From the NCBI RefSeq assembly GCF_000026545.1, contig NC_011601.1: DNA of 64,000 nucleotides, one strand, 5' to 3'. Below, in pieces: positions 6,389-15,436 of this stretch; within the stretch, counting starts at the first letter, position 1; each line of letters opens with the position of its first letter. Under the pieces are notes generated by a model that worked only from the letters and a program-made list of their open reading frames with translations, was not told where the DNA came from and searched no databases. The position numbers were made by a program, and so were the translations under genes. The DNA comes from Escherichia coli O127:H6 str. E2348/69. GTDB taxonomy: Bacteria; Pseudomonadota; Gammaproteobacteria; Enterobacterales; Enterobacteriaceae.

Positions 6389-6883
6389 TCAAAACAGCCC
6401 TTTAACGGAGCTGGCCGCGCTGTTAAGGGATGATGTGACCTTATCTTTGAAGCCGGACAGCATATCACTGAACGATGAGGATTGCAGGCGCTCCCGCAAA
6501 TCCTCATCACAGCGTTCAAGAGTCAGTGAAAATTCTATCTTTTTCGCCTTACCGTAGCGATCAAACTCGGAACGGGTCGTATTCGTTTCAGTCAGTACAT
6601 ACATGCCGTAAATCTGCCCGACACCATCAATCAGAGGCCAGGGGCGTCCTGTATATGCCTGCGTGGTCAGCAACGAAAGCGACACTTCGCCACCTGTAAT
6701 TTCAGGATAAAGCACGCCGGAAAGCACGATGCGATCATCACCTGCGCCGATATACTGCCAGCTTGCTGAACGGTTAACGCGTTCATTTTTCACATGCCGC
6801 CAGCTTTTGTTTTGCTGTAACTGCTGATGCGGCAATGTGCGCAGCTCAAAAACAAACATGCCGTAGATCATCATCATGGCCAT
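6389..6883 (-). CDS. tail protein, P2 gpU-like
   Basis: 164 aa ORF directly downstream of tape measure gene; size and order match P2 U. Confidence 0.75.
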   Translation of the reverse strand: MAMMMIYGMFVFELRTLPHQQLQQNKSWRHVKNERVNRSASWQYIGAGDDRIVLSGVLYPEITGGEVSLSLLTTQAYTGRPWPLIDGVGQIYGMYVLTETNTTRSEFDRYGKAKKIEFSLTLERCDEDLRERLQSSSFSDMLSGFKDKVTSSLNSAASSVKGLF

Positions 6884-6889
6884 GACTCC

Positions 6890-9733
6890 TCAATCTTTAT
6901 CGTAAAAACTGCCACGTCCGGCACGGTCGCGTCGTTCCAATTCTGCCCTGACCATTTCACCGACCAGTTTCGCCAGTTTGCGGGGATTCTGCGTAACAAC
7001 GTTATGCAGATGAACATGAATTTCACCGCCAAATCCGGAGACAACAGGCTCCCGGTTACGGGAAGTTGCAGGAACTGATGCCACTGGCGATCGTATGGCC
7101 TCCGCCACCGGGCGGGAGCTGGCCGCAACAACAGGGACCAGCGCCGGAGGCAGAGGAGTCGGGACCACGGGTGTGATGTTGATTGCGGAAGCAGGCTTAC
7201 TGACCTGCGCAATCTTCCGCTCCTGCCACTCCCCACGAACAGCAAGTGCGCGGGGCAGATTCTTAAAGACAATATCGCCGGGGCCAATGCGTTTTTTCGT
7301 CTCATCAACCAGCTTACCTGTGTTATCAGCAATTTTGCTGAGTCTGCGTAGCGTACCGGTATTGCTGTCTGTGAGCGGTTTGTTGTCTTTGGGTTTATCA
7401 CCTCCGGTGCCATTGCCATTTTCCACAGGCTTCGGCGGATTGATTTTCGCCAGGTCCCCCTGAAGCAAGGCAACCTTGTCCTGAAGAATGGCCGCACGCT
7501 GTGCGTCTTCGATTTTCTTGCGCGCCCTTTCCGCTTCATCCGGAAGGACGCCAAGTTTTTCAAGTATCCACGCCAGCGTATCCAGTAGCATTTTTGCAGG
7601 CGTCAGAACAAGTTGTAACGCACCGCCAAGAACGTTACCGAATATCTCGCCAGCACTGGTACATTTATCCAGCGTTTCCTTGCTGGACTCCATCGGTGAC
7701 AGCAGCGATTTAAACCAGTTAAACACCTGGCTGATCCCGCTTCCGATTGCGTCAAAAACAGGACCAAACCGTTCAAAGGTTTCGCGCAACGGGGCCAGCC
7801 TTTCCATAATCCCGCTGAACACCCCGGCAAAAAATGCCCTGATGGGATCCCAGTATTTCCAGATAAGAACGGCAGCTCCGGCAAGTGCAGCCACGATAAG
7901 ACCAACCGGACTGAACAGCGCCCCGATAGCGCCTCCCAGTAAAGAAACGGAACCCGTCACCATTCCCCATAGTGCTGGCAGGACCCTGACAGCATTCATT
8001 GATCCGGTCAGGAGAGAAAAACCAAGACGCAGTTTTGCCAGCGGACCAGCAAGCACACCAATAGCCAGCGACAACGAGCCAACCGTTGCAGTCATTGCCA
8101 GCAACGCACCGCCTGCTATCAGTAGCTGGCGCGTCAGTGCCGGATGGGCCTGCGCCAGCGCCGTCACCCTTGATACCACCCGCGTGAGCCACTGCGTGAC
8201 AGAACGCAGCGGACCGTCAATCAGATCTGCAATGCGGATGCGCAACCCTTCCCATGCACTGCCGAGTGATTTCAGATCGCCGTCAAGGTTGTTGGCCATA
8301 ACCTTTGCTGTGCGTTCAGCCTCACCGCGCGCGCCTTCAAGTTCTTTTCTCAGTTTGGGTAAGGAACCGTCACCCGCTGCATCAACGAGCGCCATAAACG
8401 ATGTGAAAGCCTCTTCTCCGGCAATGTCCTTAAAGAACGATACCCGGTCAACTTCCCCGTATTTGCGGGTGGCTTTATAAAGGTCGGCCAGCACATCCTC
8501 CATCGGGCGCATTTTGCCCCCGGCATCCGAGACGGACACGCCCAGCTCTTTCAGAGCTTCTGCCGCCGCCTTTGGCGGTGATGCCAGACGAGCCAGGCTG
8601 GCACGCATTGCCGTCCCGGCATCACTCCCTCTGATGCCCATATTCGCCAGCACGCCAGCCATCGCTGCGGCCTGCTCCAGCGATATTCCCAGCTTACCCG
8701 CCACCGGACCTGCATATTTCATGGTTTCGCCCAGTGCGCGAAGGTCAGTGTTGGTACGGGTAAACGCTGCGGTGAGTGTGTCACCGACCCGGTCCATCTG
8801 GTCAGCAGAAAGGCCGAACTGCGTCAGGATATTTGAGCCAATATCTGCCGTCTCGCCGAGATCCATACCGCCAGCCGTTGCCATGCTCAGCACTCCGGGA
8901 AGCGCAGCCTGAATGGCCTGCGGTGTGAAGCCAGCCATTGCAAGAAATGCCTGCCCACTGGCGGCATCGCCTGCGGTGAACTGCGTTTCAGAGCCAAGTT
9001 TTAACGCCTGCTCACGCAGCGCCTTAAACTGCGGGCTGTTCTGGTCGATTCGCGTCAGCGCCTGAACGCGGGACATCTCTTTGCCGAACCCGATCGCGGG
9101 CTGCAAAAAACGCCCGGCAGCATAGCCGCCCGCCGCTGCCGCACCAATTGCCAGCGCACCACCTGTTTTCAGTTTTCCCGCGGTTTCCTGCGCGCGCGAA
9201 TACCGCTCACGCGCCCGCGTTACACGCGCAAGCGCCTGCCGTTCGCGTTCAAGCTGGTTGTTGTACTGTTCGGTGCGTCTGATGGCCTGCTGGATGGTGT
9301 TATCGCTGCCTGTCAGGGAAATGCCGTGGCGTTTCAGCTCTCCGCCAAGTTCCCGCATTTTCTGAATTTCCCGTGTGCGCGATTCATTCAGGCGTTCAAG
9401 CCGGGTGCTTAACTGCTGCATCAGCTTTTGTTGTTTTTCGCTGAGCACTGTACCCGTGCGTTGTAACTGATTAAGAGCGTTAAGCTGGCGTCGTGCTTTC
9501 AATATGCCAGCATCCGCTTTACTGACAGCGTCACGGGCGCGCTCAAATGAACGCGCCTGACGCTCGAGATTTTTGATCGCCCCCTGCGTTCGCTGGATGG
9601 AGTCACCAAACTGCCCCATCAGGCGGCGGGCGTTTTCGGCAGGCCGGGTCAGCCTGTCAACGGCGCTGAAAGCGACCCGGATATCAAGAGTCTTCATTGT
9701 CTGTATTCCCGCTGCGAAGTGCCGCCCGCTCAC
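6890..9733 (-). CDS. tail tape measure protein, P2 gpT-like (start uncertain: GTG 9733 or ATG 9697)
   Basis: 947 aa ORF, Ala/Gly-rich with hydrophobic segments, follows E/E' as in P2. Confidence 0.8.
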   Translation of the reverse strand: MSGRHFAAGIQTMKTLDIRVAFSAVDRLTRPAENARRLMGQFGDSIQRTQGAIKNLERQARSFERARDAVSKADAGILKARRQLNALNQLQRTGTVLSEKQQKLMQQLSTRLERLNESRTREIQKMRELGGELKRHGISLTGSDNTIQQAIRRTEQYNNQLERERQALARVTRARERYSRAQETAGKLKTGGALAIGAAAAGGYAAGRFLQPAIGFGKEMSRVQALTRIDQNSPQFKALREQALKLGSETQFTAGDAASGQAFLAMAGFTPQAIQAALPGVLSMATAGGMDLGETADIGSNILTQFGLSADQMDRVGDTLTAAFTRTNTDLRALGETMKYAGPVAGKLGISLEQAAAMAGVLANMGIRGSDAGTAMRASLARLASPPKAAAEALKELGVSVSDAGGKMRPMEDVLADLYKATRKYGEVDRVSFFKDIAGEEAFTSFMALVDAAGDGSLPKLRKELEGARGEAERTAKVMANNLDGDLKSLGSAWEGLRIRIADLIDGPLRSVTQWLTRVVSRVTALAQAHPALTRQLLIAGGALLAMTATVGSLSLAIGVLAGPLAKLRLGFSLLTGSMNAVRVLPALWGMVTGSVSLLGGAIGALFSPVGLIVAALAGAAVLIWKYWDPIRAFFAGVFSGIMERLAPLRETFERFGPVFDAIGSGISQVFNWFKSLLSPMESSKETLDKCTSAGEIFGNVLGGALQLVLTPAKMLLDTLAWILEKLGVLPDEAERARKKIEDAQRAAILQDKVALLQGDLAKINPPKPVENGNGTGGDKPKDNKPLTDSNTGTLRRLSKIADNTGKLVDETKKRIGPGDIVFKNLPRALAVRGEWQERKIAQVSKPASAINITPVVPTPLPPALVPVVAASSRPVAEAIRSPVASVPATSRNREPVVSGFGGEIHVHLHNVVTQNPRKLAKLVGEMVRAELERRDRAGRGSFYDKD

Positions 9734-9947
9734 GCCAGCTAACCACTTCGCCGGGAGTCATCATGAAGATTTCGGCGGGCGACCAGTTAAAAATGGTGGC
9801 AATATCCGCCACCAGATCTTCGATGTGCTCAAAGCACACCAGGGTGATTACGCTGCCGTCTCCTGCACGCTCTTCGCGCCAGAGTCTGGCTCGCTCATAA
9901 AATTTACAGCCACAGCGCACAACTGAATAAAATCGCGTGACGACATT
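9684..9947 (-). CDS. gpE' extension, expressed as E+E' fusion by programmed -1 frameshift
   Basis: Overlapping frame downstream of an A-run (ttaaaaaaatg) inside E; C-terminus ...NTDNEDS typical of E+E'. Confidence 0.5.
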   Translation of the reverse strand, partial: NVVTRFYSVVRCGCKFYERARLWREERAGDGSVITLVCFEHIEDLVADIATIFNWSPAEIFMMTPGEVVSWRERAALRSGNTDNEDS

Positions 9948-10222
9948 TTTTTAATCATCACTTCATCCAGTTGTGGCGAGGTCACGCGAGGCAACAGCGT
10001 GAACATGGTATCCGCTTTCAGATTCAGCACATCAGACAGCGACAGACCACGCAGGGATCCCGCCTGCTCAATAGCCCCGGTGATCTCCACATATGTGATT
10101 TTTTCGGCACCACGCTCAATTGGCCGGGAAAGTTTTACACCACGTTCGACAGCCATATCCTCACCTGCCGTCACATCATCCGCTACGGTGTTATTCCGGG
10201 TTTCAGTATCGATATTTTTCAT
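9848..10222 (-). CDS. tail assembly chaperone, P2 gpE-like
   Basis: ORF between FII and T; N-terminus MKNIDTETRNN; paired with overlapping E' frame. Confidence 0.7.
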   Translation of the reverse strand: MKNIDTETRNNTVADDVTAGEDMAVERGVKLSRPIERGAEKITYVEITGAIEQAGSLRGLSLSDVLNLKADTMFTLLPRVTSPQLDEVMIKKMSSRDFIQLCAVAVNFMSEPDSGAKSVQETAA

Positions 10223-10277
10223 CAGTTGTCTCCTTTTCAGTCAGAGGCGACGCACTGCGCCGCCTGCATATTACTTA

Positions 10278-10790
10278 TCAGCCAAGCCCGAGCGCGGAAC
10301 GGATGCGATCGGGCACAATGTCCTTGCCGTCCTTCCGGTAAATGAAGTTCAGCAGGTCAATCTCCCACAACGGACGATCGTTAACACTCAGCTTGTAGTA
10401 GGTGTTTTTAATGGCGTAAGTGTGTGATGTGGCTTCGCCCTGTTTGGCTTCCCCCATATCAATTTCCGTCACACGTCCGCGCATTTCGACTTCATACAGG
10501 TCGCTTTCTGCATCGGTGTAATATTCACCCGCAAAACGCAGCAGCGTGCCGTCAATCGTGCCGCCATACTTAAGGAACAGCTCACGAACTGCGCCCCCCA
10601 TGACAAAGCTCGCATCAAGCGCGGAGTCGTCCAGACCGAGATCAATACTTACCGCCCCCATCATGCCACCACCCCGGTAGCTGTCGGTTTTGCGCGTCAG
10701 CTTAGGCAGGGTGACGGACGTCACCTTACCCACTTCGTTTTCACCATCCACAAACAGCGTAAAAAAGCGAAGATGTTTTGGCACAGCCAT
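10278..10790 (-). CDS. tail tube protein, P2 gpFII-like
   Basis: 170 aa ORF directly downstream of sheath gene. Confidence 0.8.
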   Translation of the reverse strand: MAVPKHLRFFTLFVDGENEVGKVTSVTLPKLTRKTDSYRGGGMMGAVSIDLGLDDSALDASFVMGGAVRELFLKYGGTIDGTLLRFAGEYYTDAESDLYEVEMRGRVTEIDMGEAKQGEATSHTYAIKNTYYKLSVNDRPLWEIDLLNFIYRKDGKDIVPDRIRSALGLG

Positions 10791-11974
10791 CAGGCACCTC
10801 CCAGCACCGCAAATGCGGGTTCAAAGTATTCATCAGTAAACGTCTGGTAAAGCTCCATGTCTTCCAGTGGCGGAACGGGCGTATATTTGTAGCGAATACG
10901 CACACGCCCCTGACGTAAATCCGTGGTGCTGTTATCCACCACGTCATACCAGCACTCCGCGCCAATCAGTTTCCCGGCAGTCACCAGTGAATCCAGTTTT
11001 GCCCTGATGGCACTGATAACATCCTTCACGTTCGCAGGCGTCAGTGGACTGTCGATGGTTTCAAACTGCGCTTCCGCAATTGAATCAGCCAGCACCTGTG
11101 CGGTTCGGGTATACACCTCAAAGATGTAGGCGTTCGTTTCCGGTGTGCGGTTGCCCCAGAAGCGGAACCCGTTGCGACGAATAATGGTCGTGATTTCTTT
11201 GTTGTTGAGGCTGTTGGCATCGCTGTCTTCGGCCTGCAACGACCAGAACACATGCCTCGACATCCCCAGCACATTTTTAACCGGAACGTTGGACAGTGAT
11301 TTGTGCCAGCCCTGCTCATGGTCAATGTACGCACGAAGGCCGCACGCATAGGCAGGCGCGGGGAACGTTTCGTTTTTGCCACTTTTCGGGTTGTAGGCGA
11401 TGAAGTCCGGCCATAAGAGCATCACCTCACGTTCGTTGAATTTCTGGCGGTAGGTAATCGCATCAGCCATCGTGTCACAGCCATGACATGAGGCATACAC
11501 AAACGCGCGCAGTTTACCCGCAATCACGCACAGGGATTTTGTCACCGCCTCCGTGTCCAGCTCCGGCGCGGCCAGAATACGCGGACGGTATCCGATGCTT
11601 TCATCCTGCTCTGCAACAAGCAGCGCATACATCCCCGTATAGCTGCCGTCAGATTCAGAACCACCGATAACCAGTTGATCCTGCGTCTTTCCGTCTTCTT
11701 CTTTGTGTTCAGCCACGCGAACGACGATCACCTTTGTGCTCACCTGGTCTGCGATAGCCTTAAGCGCACGATAAAGCGTCCCCGTTGTCCCGCATTTTCC
11801 CAGCACGTCATTGACGCGGGTCAGCAGTGTGGGCTTGTTCAGCGGGAACAGCTTCGCGTCCGCATCATCCGCCGTTGCCACGATACCGATAACACTGGAA
11901 TCAACATCATTAATCGCTGTTACCAGGTCGGTATTTTCCGTAACACGGGCACCATGAAAACGAGTTTCACTCAT
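10790..11974 (-). CDS. contractile tail sheath protein, P2 gpFI-like
   Basis: About 394 aa from internal Met MSETRFHG of 452 aa ORF; position before FII. Confidence 0.8.
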   Translation of the reverse strand: MSETRFHGARVTENTDLVTAINDVDSSVIGIVATADDADAKLFPLNKPTLLTRVNDVLGKCGTTGTLYRALKAIADQVSTKVIVVRVAEHKEEDGKTQDQLVIGGSESDGSYTGMYALLVAEQDESIGYRPRILAAPELDTEAVTKSLCVIAGKLRAFVYASCHGCDTMADAITYRQKFNEREVMLLWPDFIAYNPKSGKNETFPAPAYACGLRAYIDHEQGWHKSLSNVPVKNVLGMSRHVFWSLQAEDSDANSLNNKEITTIIRRNGFRFWGNRTPETNAYIFEVYTRTAQVLADSIAEAQFETIDSPLTPANVKDVISAIRAKLDSLVTAGKLIGAECWYDVVDNSTTDLRQGRVRIRYKYTPVPPLEDMELYQTFTDEYFEPAFAVLGGA

Positions 11975-12131
11975 AGCTTCAGCCCCTTGTATCCGTAAAA
12001 TGATTCGGCAACAATCATCACCCACCACGCGCGTAATCTCACCCCTGCGCCGTTCTCCCGACCCGGCGACAACAAAAAGCAGTAACCCCCTCCGCACGCA
12101 CATGCGACCATGCCGCACAGGGAGGGAACAG

Positions 12132-13232
12132 ATGACCGATACCACCATGCAATTGCTCAGTCAGGGCACAGACCCCGTGAAAATGCCGGATTTTGATATT
12201 CTCGCGGAGGGTAAAACGCTGTCAGGCGTGGCAGAGCGCCTGATGAGCCTGTCACTGACCGACAACCGGGGATTTGAGGCGGACCAGCTCACCATCACGC
12301 TGGATGATGCGGATGGTCAGTTGCAGCTACCGCCACGGGGCGCGCGCCTGACGGTTCTCATTGGCTGGAAAGGAGAACCGCTGACAGAAAAAGGCACTTA
12401 CATTGTTGATGAAATCGCTCACGAAGGACCGCCGGACAGGCTGACTGTTTCAGCCAGAAGCGCAGATTTTCGGGATGAATTTAACGTTAAACGTGAGGTG
12501 TCCTGGCATGATGTGACCGTTGAGCGCGTGGTATCTGCCATCGCTCATCGGTACGGTCTGAAACCGCAAATCAGCGAAATACTGATGGATATCGAAATCG
12601 ACCACGCCGACCAGACCGAAGAAAGCGACATGTCCTTCCTTACGCGCATGGCGGAAATGCTGGGCGCAATCACCACGGTAAAAAGCGGTAATCTGTTATT
12701 CATCATGCCAGGCGGTCGCGTGAACGCACTGGGCCAGCCGTTGCCATCGTTCGCCATCACACGCAGCAGCGGCGATCGCCATCAGTTCCGCATTGCTGAC
12801 CGCGAGGCGTATACGGGTGTACGCGCCTACTGGCTTGATCTTAATTACGGGAAAAAGAAAAAAGTCAGCGTGAAACGCCGCAAACCGAAAAAAGAGAAAA
12901 GCAGCAGCCGTGAAGGTGACTATATGGAAGGTGCGGAAGGCAACGTGTTTGTGTTACGCAAAACTTATCAGAACGAGCAGGCAGCAAGACGCGCAGCGGC
13001 GGCAAAATGGCAGCAGCTACAACGCGGAGCCGCATCATTTTCCATCACGCTGGCACGTGGACGAGCAGAACTCTACCCCGAAATGCATGGCACGGTAACA
13101 GGATTTAAAAGCGAGATTGATAATCAGGACTGGATCATTGCAAAAGCCGAGCACACCATTGATAACAGTGGCTTTACCACGCAGCTTGAGCTTGAAGCCA
13201 AAATCCCGGAATGGATAGCAGAAACAGAGTAA
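12132..13232 (+). CDS. tail protein, P2 gpD-like
   Basis: About 366 aa from MTDTTMQLL; lysine-rich linker; precedes ogr as in P2. Confidence 0.75.
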   Translation: MTDTTMQLLSQGTDPVKMPDFDILAEGKTLSGVAERLMSLSLTDNRGFEADQLTITLDDADGQLQLPPRGARLTVLIGWKGEPLTEKGTYIVDEIAHEGPPDRLTVSARSADFRDEFNVKREVSWHDVTVERVVSAIAHRYGLKPQISEILMDIEIDHADQTEESDMSFLTRMAEMLGAITTVKSGNLLFIMPGGRVNALGQPLPSFAITRSSGDRHQFRIADREAYTGVRAYWLDLNYGKKKKVSVKRRKPKKEKSSSREGDYMEGAEGNVFVLRKTYQNEQAARRAAAAKWQQLQRGAASFSITLARGRAELYPEMHGTVTGFKSEIDNQDWIIAKAEHTIDNSGFTTQLELEAKIPEWIAETE

Positions 13233-13426
13233 ACAACTTAGATGCATTAGCCCTGACATTTGCTAACGCGCTTACAGCAAGAATCATAACCAATCTGACA
13301 GCCTACCCGGTGTCAAAATCAGAAGAGCCTTACATTAGAATATGTTAATTTGTAGCAAACAAATTTACACACAAATGATTACTGCTGAAATAGCCCCCAT
13401 AAATGCCATGTCAAAGGATCCATGTT

Positions 13427-14092
13427 ATGAATATGCAAATTTTTATCGCACCAGCAGCCACAGTTGCTGCAGTCTGCCTTGCTGCATATTTTGCTTTACG
13501 AAATGAACGTAAAAAGAAAGCACTTGAGATTAGAACAACTCAACTAGATCGAATATCTGAGCTAGTAAACCGAGCATCTACCAATTTGATGCAATATACA
13601 GGTACTCTTGCCTCTATACTGGAAGCGCACGCCAAAGATAATTATCTACCGAACAAAAAATTTGACATTAATGTAATTAGCAAATGGAAAGATTGCCTCG
13701 ATGAGAGTGAGGTCTGGGCGATTGATATACAGCAACTAAGAACATGTCAGCACAGTCTGGAGTTTCATCGTGAAAAAGAATGGGCTGAATGGAAAAAAAT
13801 AATTCCACCATTACTTGATAAAATTAACCAATTTTTTCTCATATCTAAGCCAGGGCAACCTGTTACGTTTATAAATGGCCAAAACAAAACAGCTGATGAA
13901 CTACTTGTTTTCTCAAGATATTTGAGAAAACAAACAGCAGAAATTGAATCAGTACGTCAGCTGTTACTTTCTCAAATGAGAGAGGAATTCATCGAGTTAA
14001 CTAGCTTTGAACCTGTCACAATGTTTAGCTTATTTAAATCAATAAAGAAAAATGTCATGCAATTTTTCTGTATCAGTGCTCTTAAAAATTGA
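13427..14092 (+). CDS. hypothetical membrane-anchored protein (N-terminal TM helix), AT-rich insert between D and ogr
   Basis: 229 aa ORF (13403..14092; likely start 13427 or 13433); hydrophobic N-terminus IFIAPAATVAAVCLAAYFAL then charged helical region; markedly lower GC than flanking phage genes. Confidence 0.55.
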   Translation: MNMQIFIAPAATVAAVCLAAYFALRNERKKKALEIRTTQLDRISELVNRASTNLMQYTGTLASILEAHAKDNYLPNKKFDINVISKWKDCLDESEVWAIDIQQLRTCQHSLEFHREKEWAEWKKIIPPLLDKINQFFLISKPGQPVTFINGQNKTADELLVFSRYLRKQTAEIESVRQLLLSQMREEFIELTSFEPVTMFSLFKSIKKNVMQFFCISALKN

Positions 14093-14241
14093 CGCTCTGT
14101 TGCAAGCAACCCCAGTGTTAAACTGGGGTTATTCTTGCTAAGAGACCTTTCTACGGCATCAGTAAACAAAACGAACTATCAGTTGGAGTCTGAGCAAGTT
14201 CAGCCTAAACTAGCGACAGCACTACGTTAAGGGAGGTCGCT

Positions 14242-14562: not shown

Positions 14563-14775
14563 ATGGTCGGAGGGAATACCCGAAGGCCAGATGTGGAAAG
14601 GCCCCGGAAAACATCTCTGTTTAACCGAGGCCCTAACCGCATTACCTTGACAAGTGAAAGGTTAGCGCCTCTCCGGAAAAGGAGCAAGTGCTATGTCGCA
14701 AAAATCGCTTACGGCCATCACGTTCTGCGTGACGGCAATCCTCATCATCTGGATGTTGCACGGTTCGCTGTGTGA
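14563..14775 (+). CDS. mok-like overlapping reading frame of hok-family locus
   Basis: 70 aa ORF in different frame overlapping the hok-like ORF, as mok overlaps hok in plasmid R1. Confidence 0.4.
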   Translation: MVGGNTRRPDVERPRKTSLFNRGPNRITLTSERLAPLRKRSKCYVAKIAYGHHVLRDGNPHHLDVARFAV

Positions 14776-14833
14776 AATACGGATGAGCTTCTGGGGAGCG
14801 GAGTTTGCGGCGTTCTTACAGTGTAAGCAGTAA
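14693..14833 (+). CDS. Hok/Gef-family type I toxin (small membrane peptide)
   Basis: 46 aa: MSQKSLTAITFCVTAILIIWMLHGSLCEIRMSFWGAEFAAFLQCKQ; TM segment followed by SLCEIR and E(V/F)AAF motifs of Hok; good SD (aaaaggag) upstream. Confidence 0.75.
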   Translation: MSQKSLTAITFCVTAILIIWMLHGSLCEIRMSFWGAEFAAFLQCKQ

Positions 14834-15136: not shown

Positions 15137-15436
15137 TTACTCGTCTTTGGGCGAAGCGTTTTCGACCCGGCTTTTTAACTTCTGCCCGGGTCTGAAGGTC
15201 ACCACGCGCCGTGCTGTAATGGGAATATCCTCGCCCGTTTTCGGGTTACGTCCCGGGCGTTGATTCTTATCACGCAGATCGAAGTTACCAAAACCAGAGA
15301 GTTTCACCTGTTCGCCGTTTTCCAGAGCGCGACGGATCTCTTCGAAAAACAGTTCAACCAGTTCTTTGGCATCCCGCTTGCTAAGCCCAAGCTTATCAAA
15401 CAGATATTCTGACATTTCAGCTTTTGTAAGCGCCAT
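15137..15436 (-). CDS. ihfA: integration host factor alpha subunit
   Basis: 99 aa [33 protein letters not shown]... matches IHF-alpha. Confidence 0.95.

What the first reader, a model, noticed from the sequence alone, without database searches (positions are those of the whole stretch)
9684..10222. E/E' programmed frameshift with an unusually long zero-frame gpE
The E frame contains an A-run (gtgatgattaaaaaaatg, codons about 88-92) where a -1 slip would enter the overlapping E' frame ending ...NTDNEDS. The zero frame continues for about 30 more codons (124 aa total) instead of ending shortly after the slip site as in the lambda G/GT and P2 E/E' examples I recall.
Basis: partly seen in the sequence, partly recalled or inferred. 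Interest (0 to 1): 0.3.

Follow-up and report, generated by a model that had tools for sequence, protein, structure and literature searches.

The report
P2-type E/E' tail chaperone frameshift

Summary

The window is 100% identical to E. coli E2348/69. It carries a P88-like (Xuanwuvirus, Peduoviridae) prophage with the gene order FI-FII-E-E'-T-U.

The proposed slip site is not supported.
- P88 and its close relatives, plus window-type loci L044 and L051, have a -1-frame TGA between the A-run and E'.
- gpE homology, including invariant D97 and F108, continues in the zero frame to codon ~109.
- The only X_XXY_YYZ heptamer in the overlap is A_AAT_TTT (9905-9899, N107-F108). It lies one codon upstream of the position of P2's T_TTT_TTG.
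- That heptamer is unchanged in all 78 relatives recovered by protein similarity.
- Conservation switches from the zero frame to the -1 frame at this point.

After this site the zero frame runs 16 codons. Thirteen Peduoviridae examined range from 5 to 22, and P2 has 6. Most of gpE's extra length is an N-terminal extension.

One minor new point: this allele has lost P2's T6G (TTTTTTG→TTTTATG). Klebsiella Reipivirus phages have independently lost it (CCCTTTCTTG).

Low interest.

The parts
9848..10222 (-). gpE, the zero-frame tail assembly chaperone (124 aa). ATG at 10222, TAA at 9850-9848.
   Evidence: ORF and translation. phrog_103 E=4e-33. Pfam PF10109 Phage_TAC_7 E=0.0029, below its cut-off, covering residues 29-109. 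tblastn to P2-type gpE over residues 26-114. RefSeq WP_000789085.1 'tail protein'.
10230..10235 (-). Shine-Dalgarno sequence AAGGAG, 7 nt upstream of the gpE ATG.
   Evidence: Read directly from the sequence.
9899..9905 (-). Proposed slippery heptamer A_AAT_TTT (last base of V106, then N107 and F108). It is followed by ATG where relatives have TTG.
   Evidence: It is the only X_XXY_YYZ heptamer in the 106-nt overlap. It lies one codon upstream of P2's annotated T_TTT_TTG site. It is unchanged in 78/78 protein-recovered IMG/VR relatives. It belongs to the H_HH.U_UU.Y class, among the most efficient in E. coli (PMC4066793).
9684..9899 (-). E' extension read in the -1 frame after the slip (YERARLWREERAGDGSV...RSGNTDNEDS*, 71 aa). 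The predicted E+E' fusion is 179 aa.
   Evidence: Translation. Pfam PF06528 Phage_P2_GpE E=1.2e-12. phrog_1756 2.5e-38, covering fusion residues 104-177. Downstream of F108 the -1 frame is better conserved than the zero frame.
9946..9952 (-). A7 run (K91 K92 plus the first base of M93). It is judged not to be the programmed site.
   Evidence: A -1 stop follows it in the P88 lineage and in L044/L051. 118 of 120 IMG/VR loci have the run, whether or not the -1 frame downstream is open.
9951..9953 (-). TAA in the -1 frame. This is the 5' limit of the window in which a productive -1 shift can occur in this allele.
9852..9894 (-). Possible stem-loop 4-8 nt downstream of the heptamer (-18.9 kcal/mol). 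Weak and allele-specific; not established as a stimulator.
   Evidence: z=-2.05 (6 of 200 shuffles). z=-1.58 (22 of 300 shuffles). Absent from P88, L080, phiT5282H and KSP20.
6890..9697 (-). Tape-measure gene T. Its ATG at 9697 overlaps the end of E' by 14 nt, as in P2.
   Evidence: Pfam PF10145 E=3.6e-58. RefSeq CDS coordinates.
10278..10790 (-). Tail tube gene FII, immediately upstream of E.
   Evidence: Pfam PF04985 E=7.5e-47.

Best explanation
The region is the tail-assembly-chaperone gene pair E/E' of a P88-like, P2-family prophage.

Most ribosomes translate gpE (124 aa) to the TAA at 9850-9848. A minority slip back one base on A_AAU_UUU (9905-9899). At that moment tRNA-Asn is in the P site (AAU→AAA) and tRNA-Phe is in the A site (UUU→UUU, a cognate re-pairing). 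These ribosomes then read TAT GAG CGA... in the -1 frame to the TGA at 9686-9684. The product is a 179-aa E+E' fusion (...AVAVNF-YERARLW...NTDNEDS).

By analogy with lambda G/GT and P2 E/E+E', the shared gpE part would bind the tape-measure protein T. The E' part would recruit the tube protein. The slip frequency would set the ratio of the two proteins.

Shown here: the ORF geometry, the homology of both parts, the position and conservation of the heptamer, and the switch of coding constraint at that point.

Inferred: that slippage actually occurs there, its efficiency, and the roles of the two proteins.
For: 1. Synteny and homology. The gene order is FII-E-E'-T. E' matches PF06528 (1.2e-12) and phrog_1756. 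E matches phrog_103 and P2-type gpE.

2. A_AAT_TTT is the only canonical heptamer in the overlap.

3. Position. In the protein alignment F108 is invariant, and window N-F-M aligns with P2 G-F-L. P2's annotated site T_TTT_TTG sits on that F-L pair.

4. The close relative P88 reads GTA AAT TTT TTG, so it carries both heptamers. Its -1 frame is closed upstream by a TGA, which confines its site to within 11 codons of the heptamer.

5. GTAAATTTT is unchanged in 78/78 loci recovered by protein similarity. The next codon is ATG in 68 and TTG in 10. In a scan-order sample of 120 loci the split is 55 ATG to 65 TTG.

6. A second lineage, Klebsiella Reipivirus, has GTC CCT TTC TTG. That is C_CCU_UUC at the same codon pair, with no T6G. 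phiT5282H has both C_CCT_TTT and T6G.

7. Frame-specific conservation, window versus P88. Upstream of F108, the zero frame matches 14/16 and the -1 frame 9/16, with a stop in the -1 frame. Downstream, the zero frame matches 8/16 and the -1 frame 12/17. phiT5282H, KSP20 and Kp E16 show the same direction.

8. Reporter data in E. coli place H_HH.U_UU.Y heptamers among the most efficient. The rule given is cognate A-site re-pairing (PMC4066793).

9. Viability. Phage phiSM has an overlap region, including the site, identical to the window's. It forms plaques and lysogens on E. coli K-12 (PMC6456863). E+E' is annotated as essential in P2.
Against: - There is no direct evidence of the fusion protein or of slippage for any P88-like phage. 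GenBank and RefSeq annotate E and E' as two separate CDSs.
- The allele lacks P2's experimentally studied T6G motif.
- No conserved downstream stimulatory structure or upstream SD-like element was found, so the efficiency is unknown.
- In this allele the -1 frame is also open back to the A7 run, so ORF geometry alone does not exclude that site here.
- The 78/78 invariance comes from only two or three closely related lineages, so it counts as few independent observations.
Confidence: 0.8

Rival explanations
1. One reading: the -1 slip occurs on the A7 run (I90 K91 K92, 9952-9946). It could be ribosomal, with P-site tRNA-Lys slipping AAA→AAA. It could also be RNA polymerase adding one A. Either route gives the fusion ...VMIKK-NVVTRFYSVVRCGCKFYERARLW....
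For: In this allele the -1 frame is open from the TAA at 9953-9951, immediately before the run. A-runs are known slippery sequences in E. coli: A_AA.A is a weakly active tetramer, and A7 is under-represented in E. coli genes (PMC4066793). The run is present in 118/120 relatives.
Against: - The run is not in X_XXY_YYZ register; it reads U_AAA_AAA.
- The P88 lineage keeps the run but has a -1 TGA 3-4 codons later.
- L044 and L051, which carry the window's allele, have the same stop through one synonymous change.
- The -1 frame between the run and the heptamer is poorly conserved (9/16 against 14/16 for the zero frame), and it contains stops in four other lineages.
- The fusion would replace the conserved gpE segment that contains invariant D97 and F108.
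- AAA-AAA is simply the commonest Lys-Lys codon pair.
Confidence: 0.05
2. There is no frameshift. E' is made as an independent 51-aa protein from the GTG at 9839, as GenBank and RefSeq annotate it.
For: All P88-like records seen annotate a separate 156-nt CDS, 'GpE family phage tail protein'. The GTG is conserved between the two alleles.
Against: - There is no Shine-Dalgarno sequence 5-10 nt upstream of the GTG. The nearest GGAGA is about 20 nt away.
- -1-frame conservation, including the motif ER.GDG shared with phiT5282H, KSP20 and Klebsiella phages, extends about 20 codons upstream of that GTG, right up to the heptamer.
- phrog_1756 matches from fusion residue 104.
- The homologous P2 E' is annotated in the P2 record as expressed only as the E+E' fusion by a -1 frameshift. 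[quoted passage not shown]
Confidence: 0.07
3. The TTTTTTG→TTTTATG change inactivated the frameshift site. This prophage would then make no E+E' and be tail-defective.
For: The canonical P2 heptamer T_TTT_TTG is absent. No efficiency measurement exists for the remaining site in this context.
Against: - The ATG allele is in 55 of 120 scan-order IMG/VR loci, and 593 E. coli genome records match the region at ≥95% identity. That is too common for a lethal lesion.
- Plaque-forming phage phiSM has an overlap region, including the site, identical to the window's. Phages P88_4B11, 503458 and 520873 are deposited as phage genomes and are 97% identical over this region; P88_4B11 has the same site.
- E and E' remain intact ORFs.
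- A_AAU_UUU is itself a competent heptamer class in E. coli.
Confidence: 0.05

Closest known systems
Bacteriophage P2 E / E+E' (-1 frameshift in the FI-FII-E-T-U-D tail operon; Christie et al. 2002, as summarised in PMC3931495 and annotated in NC_001895)
   Same: The proteins are homologous: gpE at 33% identity over the shared domain, and E' matches Pfam PF06528. The position between FII and T is the same. E' is in the -1 frame and overlaps the start of T. The slip occurs at the invariant Phe codon near the end of the gpE domain.
   Different: - The heptamer is A_AAT_TTT, one codon upstream, instead of T_TTT_TTG.
- The zero-frame tail after the site is 16 codons rather than 6.
- The -1 linker before the conserved E' domain is about 10 residues longer and carries an ER.GDG motif.
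- gpE has an N-terminal extension of about 23 residues.
- The FI-U block is inverted relative to D-ogr.
Escherichia phage P88 and relatives (Xuanwuvirus / Gemsvirus) E/E'
   Same: Same clade, 84-86% nucleotide identity. Same N-terminal extension, same 16-codon tail and same GTA AAT TTT codons.
   Different: P88 keeps TTG after TTT, so both A_AAT_TTT and T_TTT_TTG are present. It also has a -1 TGA between the A-run and the site. The window allele has ATG, so only A_AAT_TTT remains, and it lacks that stop.
Klebsiella Reipivirus phages (ST16-OXA48phi5.4, Kp4845-1) E/E'
   Same: They have also lost T6G and keep only an X_XXU_UUY heptamer (C_CCT_TTC) on the residue-Phe codon pair at the same aligned position. 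The tail is 17 codons.
   Different: gpE is only about 50% identical. The P-site codon is Pro rather than Asn. There is no N-terminal extension (105 aa).
Phage lambda G / GT
   Same: The logic is the same: a chaperone gene upstream of the tape-measure gene, with low-frequency -1 slippage that fixes the ratio of short to long product (PMC5009743).
   Different: There is no sequence similarity. Lambda uses G_GGA_AAG. Within Peduoviridae, Mannheimia phiMhaA1 uses that motif.
Rous sarcoma virus gag-pol slippery site A_AAU_UUA (from my own knowledge, not checked here)
   Same: Nearly the same heptamer, with Asn-AAU in the P site and a UUN codon in the A site.
   Different: It is a eukaryotic retrovirus, needs a downstream structure, and has an unrelated function.

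Membership tests
P2-type E/E' (G/GT-like) tail assembly chaperone frameshift | The gene pair lies between the tail tube gene and the tape-measure gene. | tested here: met
   FII (PF04985, 7.5e-47) at 10278-10790. T (PF10145, 3.6e-58) at 6890-9697. Both flank E/E' on the same strand.
P2-type E/E' (G/GT-like) tail assembly chaperone frameshift | The downstream ORF is in the -1 frame, overlaps the 3' end of the upstream ORF, and has no ribosome-binding site of its own. | tested here: met
   E' is offset by -1. There is a 106-nt overlap window. No SD lies within 5-10 nt of the candidate GTG starts at 9839 or 9920.
P2-type E/E' (G/GT-like) tail assembly chaperone frameshift | The upstream product is homologous to gpE / tail assembly chaperone. 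| tested here: met
   phrog_103 4e-33. tblastn to P2-type gpE about 1e-7 over residues 26-114. Alignment A1 has 19 invariant columns. Pfam PF10109 reaches only E=0.0029, below its cut-off. NCBIfam gave no hit.
P2-type E/E' (G/GT-like) tail assembly chaperone frameshift | The -1 extension is homologous to P2 E' (Pfam Phage_P2_GpE). | tested here: met
   PF06528 E=1.2e-12, 47.5 bits against a cut-off of 23. phrog_1756 2.5e-38.
P2-type E/E' (G/GT-like) tail assembly chaperone frameshift | A slippery X_XXY_YYZ heptamer lies in the overlap at a conserved position. | tested here: met
   A_AAT_TTT at 9905-9899 is the only heptamer in the overlap. It lies at the invariant Phe and is unchanged in 78/78 relatives.
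P2-type E/E' (G/GT-like) tail assembly chaperone frameshift | The specific P2 motif T_TTT_TTG (T6G) or T7. | tested here: not met
   The window reads TTTTATG. T6G is present in P88, phiT5282H, KSP20, P2, Burkholderia, Ralstonia and Yersinia phages. T7 is present in Smp131 and Zymomonas. This motif is typical of the group, not defining: Reipivirus and Mannheimia phages also lack it.
P2-type E/E' (G/GT-like) tail assembly chaperone frameshift | The E+E' fusion protein is actually made by -1 slippage and is needed for tail assembly. | not testable with these tools
   Only indirect support: plaque-forming phiSM carries the identical site.
A-run (dnaX / IS-type A_AAA_AAR) frameshift or transcriptional slippage site | The run is in X_XXY_YYZ register, and the -1 frame downstream is open and conserved in relatives. 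| tested here: not met
   The register is U_AAA_AAA. The -1 frame is closed by TGA in the P88 lineage and in L044/L051, and is poorly conserved.

The most novel reading that the evidence does not exclude
In the P88/phiT5282H/Reipivirus branch of Peduoviridae, the working slippery element may not be P2's T6G. It may instead be an X_XXU_UUY heptamer, or minimally the tetramer U_UUY on the invariant Phe codon, one codon upstream. If so, T6G could be lost independently, as in E. coli (TTTTATG) and in Klebsiella (TTTCTTG). The two coexisting E. coli alleles (about 55:65 in IMG/VR) would then be a natural experiment in tuning the E:E+E' ratio. The window allele may have gained a compensating downstream hairpin.
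Probability: 0.45. Interest if true: 0.3.

Novelty: new member of a known kind. Interest (0 to 1): 0.15.

Why it matters
Mainly for annotation. About a quarter of complete E. coli genomes (1369 of 5426) carry this prophage module. Every record inspected here, including E2348/69, annotates E and E' as two separate proteins, with no ribosomal-slippage join.

Placing the site at AAATTTT gives the correct 179-aa E+E' product. It also prevents a wrong join at the A-run.

Scientifically it adds a small point. The P2 T6G motif is dispensable in at least two lineages, where a neighbouring X_XXU_UUY heptamer remains. That fits the E. coli rule that cognate A-site re-pairing drives -1 slippage. It opens no major question.

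Tried and rejected
- Downstream stimulatory RNA structure. The window allele folds into a -18.9 kcal/mol hairpin 4-8 nt after the heptamer. Its z-score is only -1.6 to -2.05, and nothing comparable exists in P88, the recombinant L080, phiT5282H, KSP20 or P2. I did not accept it as a conserved stimulator.
- Upstream SD-like stimulator. None is visible in the 20 nt before the heptamer.
- Solved structures of gpE relatives. There was no significant PDB hit.
- NCBIfam. No family matched the fusion protein.
- The original P2 paper (PMC135442) is not in the held library. P2 facts therefore come from the P2 RefSeq annotation, its sequence and secondary accounts (PMC3931495; PMC5009743).
- The P88 paper (PMC5285337) does not mention the frameshift. 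The only five papers in the library that mention Xuanwuvirus are not about this phage group, judging by title and abstract.
- An internal start at M23 as an explanation for the long gpE. Rejected because P88 has no Met at that position, and the annotated ATG has a good SD.
- Structure prediction was not run. Sequence conservation of residues 93-108 already answered the question.
Full report
**What is in the sequence**

The finding lies on the minus strand. An ORF runs from the ATG at 10222 to the TAA at 9850-9848 and encodes 124 aa. An AAGGAG Shine-Dalgarno sequence sits 7 nt upstream of the ATG. The A7 run occupies 9952-9946, within codons I90 K91 K92 M93. The -1 frame is open from a TAA at 9953-9951 to a TGA at 9686-9684 and ends ...RSGNTDNEDS.

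**Identity and context**

- The 701-bp region is 100% identical to E. coli E2348/69.
- It is 97% identical to Xuanwuvirus P88_4B11, Citrobacter phage phiSM, and phages 503458 and 520873.
- It is 84-86% identical to P88, Chuche, 500465-2 and PhiR44_2.

The gene order on the minus strand is FI, FII, E, E', T, U. FII matches PF04985 (7.5e-47) and T matches PF10145 (3.6e-58). The -1 peptide matches Pfam Phage_P2_GpE (1.2e-12) and phrog_1756 (2.5e-38). The zero-frame protein matches phrog_103 (4e-33) and P2-type gpE over residues 26-114. This is a genuine P2-family E/E' pair. Every record inspected annotates E and E' as two separate CDSs, with no slippage join.

**Where the slip site is**

In P2, the annotated site is T_TTT_TTG on codons F84-L85, six codons before the gpE stop. 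In a five-genus gpE alignment, F108 of the window is invariant, and window N-F-M aligns with P2 G-F-L. The only X_XXY_YYZ heptamer in the window's 106-nt overlap is A_AAT_TTT at 9905-9899 (V106-N107-F108), one codon upstream of the P2 position.

Four lines of evidence argue against the A-run:

1. P88, Chuche, 500465-2 and PhiR44_2 keep the A7 run. They have a -1 TGA three to four codons after it, and they read GTA AAT TTT TTG at the homologous site.
2. L044 and L051 carry the window's own allele but have a synonymous CGC→CGT change that creates the same -1 TGA. Both are 36-38-kb viral contigs.
3. KSP20, Kp E16KP0115 and P2 also have -1 stops within the 15 codons before the Phe.
4. A fusion made at K92 would discard the conserved zero-frame segment that contains invariant D97 and F108.

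Coding constraint switches frame at the heptamer:

| Region (window vs P88) | Zero frame | -1 frame |
|---|---|---|
| 16 codons up to F108 | 14/16 identical | 9/16 identical, with a stop |
| Downstream of F108 | 8/16 identical | 12/17 identical |

The same direction holds against phiT5282H, KSP20 and Kp E16. An ER.GDG motif is shared in the -1 frame across these genera.

**Is the remaining heptamer credible?**

- GTAAATTTT is unchanged in all 78 loci recovered by protein similarity from IMG/VR. The next codon is ATG in 68 and TTG in 10.
- In a scan-order sample of 120 loci, the two alleles are about equally common: 55 ATG and 65 TTG.
- Klebsiella Reipivirus phages read GTC CCT TTC TTG. That is C_CCU_UUC at the same codon pair, with no T6G.
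- phiT5282H carries both C_CCT_TTT and T6G.
- Systematic reporter data in E. coli place H_HH.U_UU.Y heptamers among the most efficient. The rule given is that cognate A-site re-pairing matters most. U_UU.C and U_UU.U are also the second and third best tetramers (PMC4066793).
- Phage phiSM has an overlap region, including the site, identical to the window's. It forms plaques and lysogens on K-12 (PMC6456863). E+E' is annotated as essential in P2.

I infer that A_AAU_UUU is a working site, but no experiment shows this directly.

**Is gpE unusually long?**

Zero-frame codons remaining after the heptamer:

| Phage | Codons after the heptamer |
|---|---|
| Mannheimia phiMhaA1 (G_GGA_AAG) | 5 |
| P2, Kp ST147-VIM1phi7.1, Yersinia 06.16-2 | 6 |
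| Zymomonas pZM36 | 8 |
| Smp131 | 11 |
| Burkholderia vB_SBP36 | 14 |
| P88 | 15 (T6G) or 16 (AAATTTT) |
| Window, phiT5282H, KSP20, Kp E16KP0115, Kp4876-2 | 16 |
| Reipivirus | 17 |
| RsoM1USA | 22 |

Sixteen codons is typical. The figure of 'about 30' came from choosing the wrong site. The rest of the extra length against P2 (124 aa versus 91 aa) is a variable N-terminal extension of about 23 residues, rich in T, D, N and E. P88 shares this extension.

**Stimulatory elements**

A hairpin at 9894-9852 (-18.9 kcal/mol) follows the heptamer in this allele. It is only marginally better than shuffled sequence: z=-2.05 and z=-1.58. Relatives lack it. I treat it as unproven.

**Rivals**

| Rival explanation | Confidence |
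|---|---|
| Ribosomal or transcriptional slippage at the A-run | 0.05 |
| Independent initiation of E' at GTG 9839 | 0.07 |
| Frameshift site inactivated, prophage tail-defective | 0.05 |

- Independent initiation is unlikely because there is no SD, and -1-frame conservation extends about 20 codons upstream of that GTG.
- An inactivated site is contradicted by the allele's frequency and by plaque-forming phiSM.

**Verdict**

This is a known kind of element, the P2/lambda-type tail chaperone frameshift, in an unannotated member. The one modestly new observation is that the canonical T6G has been replaced by, or reduced to, a neighbouring X_XXU_UUY heptamer in two lineages.

Noticed in passing
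window 13233-14241 (ORF 13427-14092, + strand): There is a low-GC insert of about 1 kb (35-39% against about 54% in the flanks) between gpD and ogr. It holds one 221-aa ORF with no credible Pfam or PADLOC match. P88_4B11 lacks the insert; there D is followed directly by ogr. It may be prophage cargo (a moron).
   Followed up: partly
window 6389-13232: The FI-FII-E-E'-T-U block lies on the opposite strand to D-ogr, with a DNA invertase gene next to U. P2 has FI FII E T U D ogr co-linear. The inverted arrangement is shared by P88 and P88_4B11, so it is a genus feature.
   Followed up: partly
window 9684-10222; also L001, L002, L005-L007, L219: GenBank and RefSeq (PGAP) annotate gpE (124 aa) and a 51-aa 'GpE family phage tail protein' from GTG 9839 as separate CDSs in every P88-like record seen. 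None carries a ribosomal-slippage join. 1369 of 5426 complete E. coli genomes carry this module.
   Followed up: yes
L008 and L220 (Klebsiella Reipivirus), site GTC CCT TTC TTG: A second lineage lacks T6G at the E/E' site and keeps only C_CCT_TTC on the Pro-Phe codon pair.
   Followed up: partly
L094 (Mannheimia phage phiMhaA1-BAA410): Its gpE homolog has a lambda-type G_GGA_AAG heptamer five codons before the stop, in place of a T-run.
   Followed up: no
L003 (Citrobacter phage phiSM) and PMC6456863: The paper describes phiSM virions as siphovirus-like with non-contractile tails. Its genome nevertheless encodes a P2-type tail tube gene (FII) and the 1185-nt gene upstream of it at the sheath (FI) position, which that record labels 'late control gene D protein'.
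   Followed up: no
window 14693-14833 and 15137-15436: A hok/gef-family toxin gene lies at the prophage end. The prophage abuts ihfA-pheT-pheS, which is probably the integration site region.
   Followed up: no
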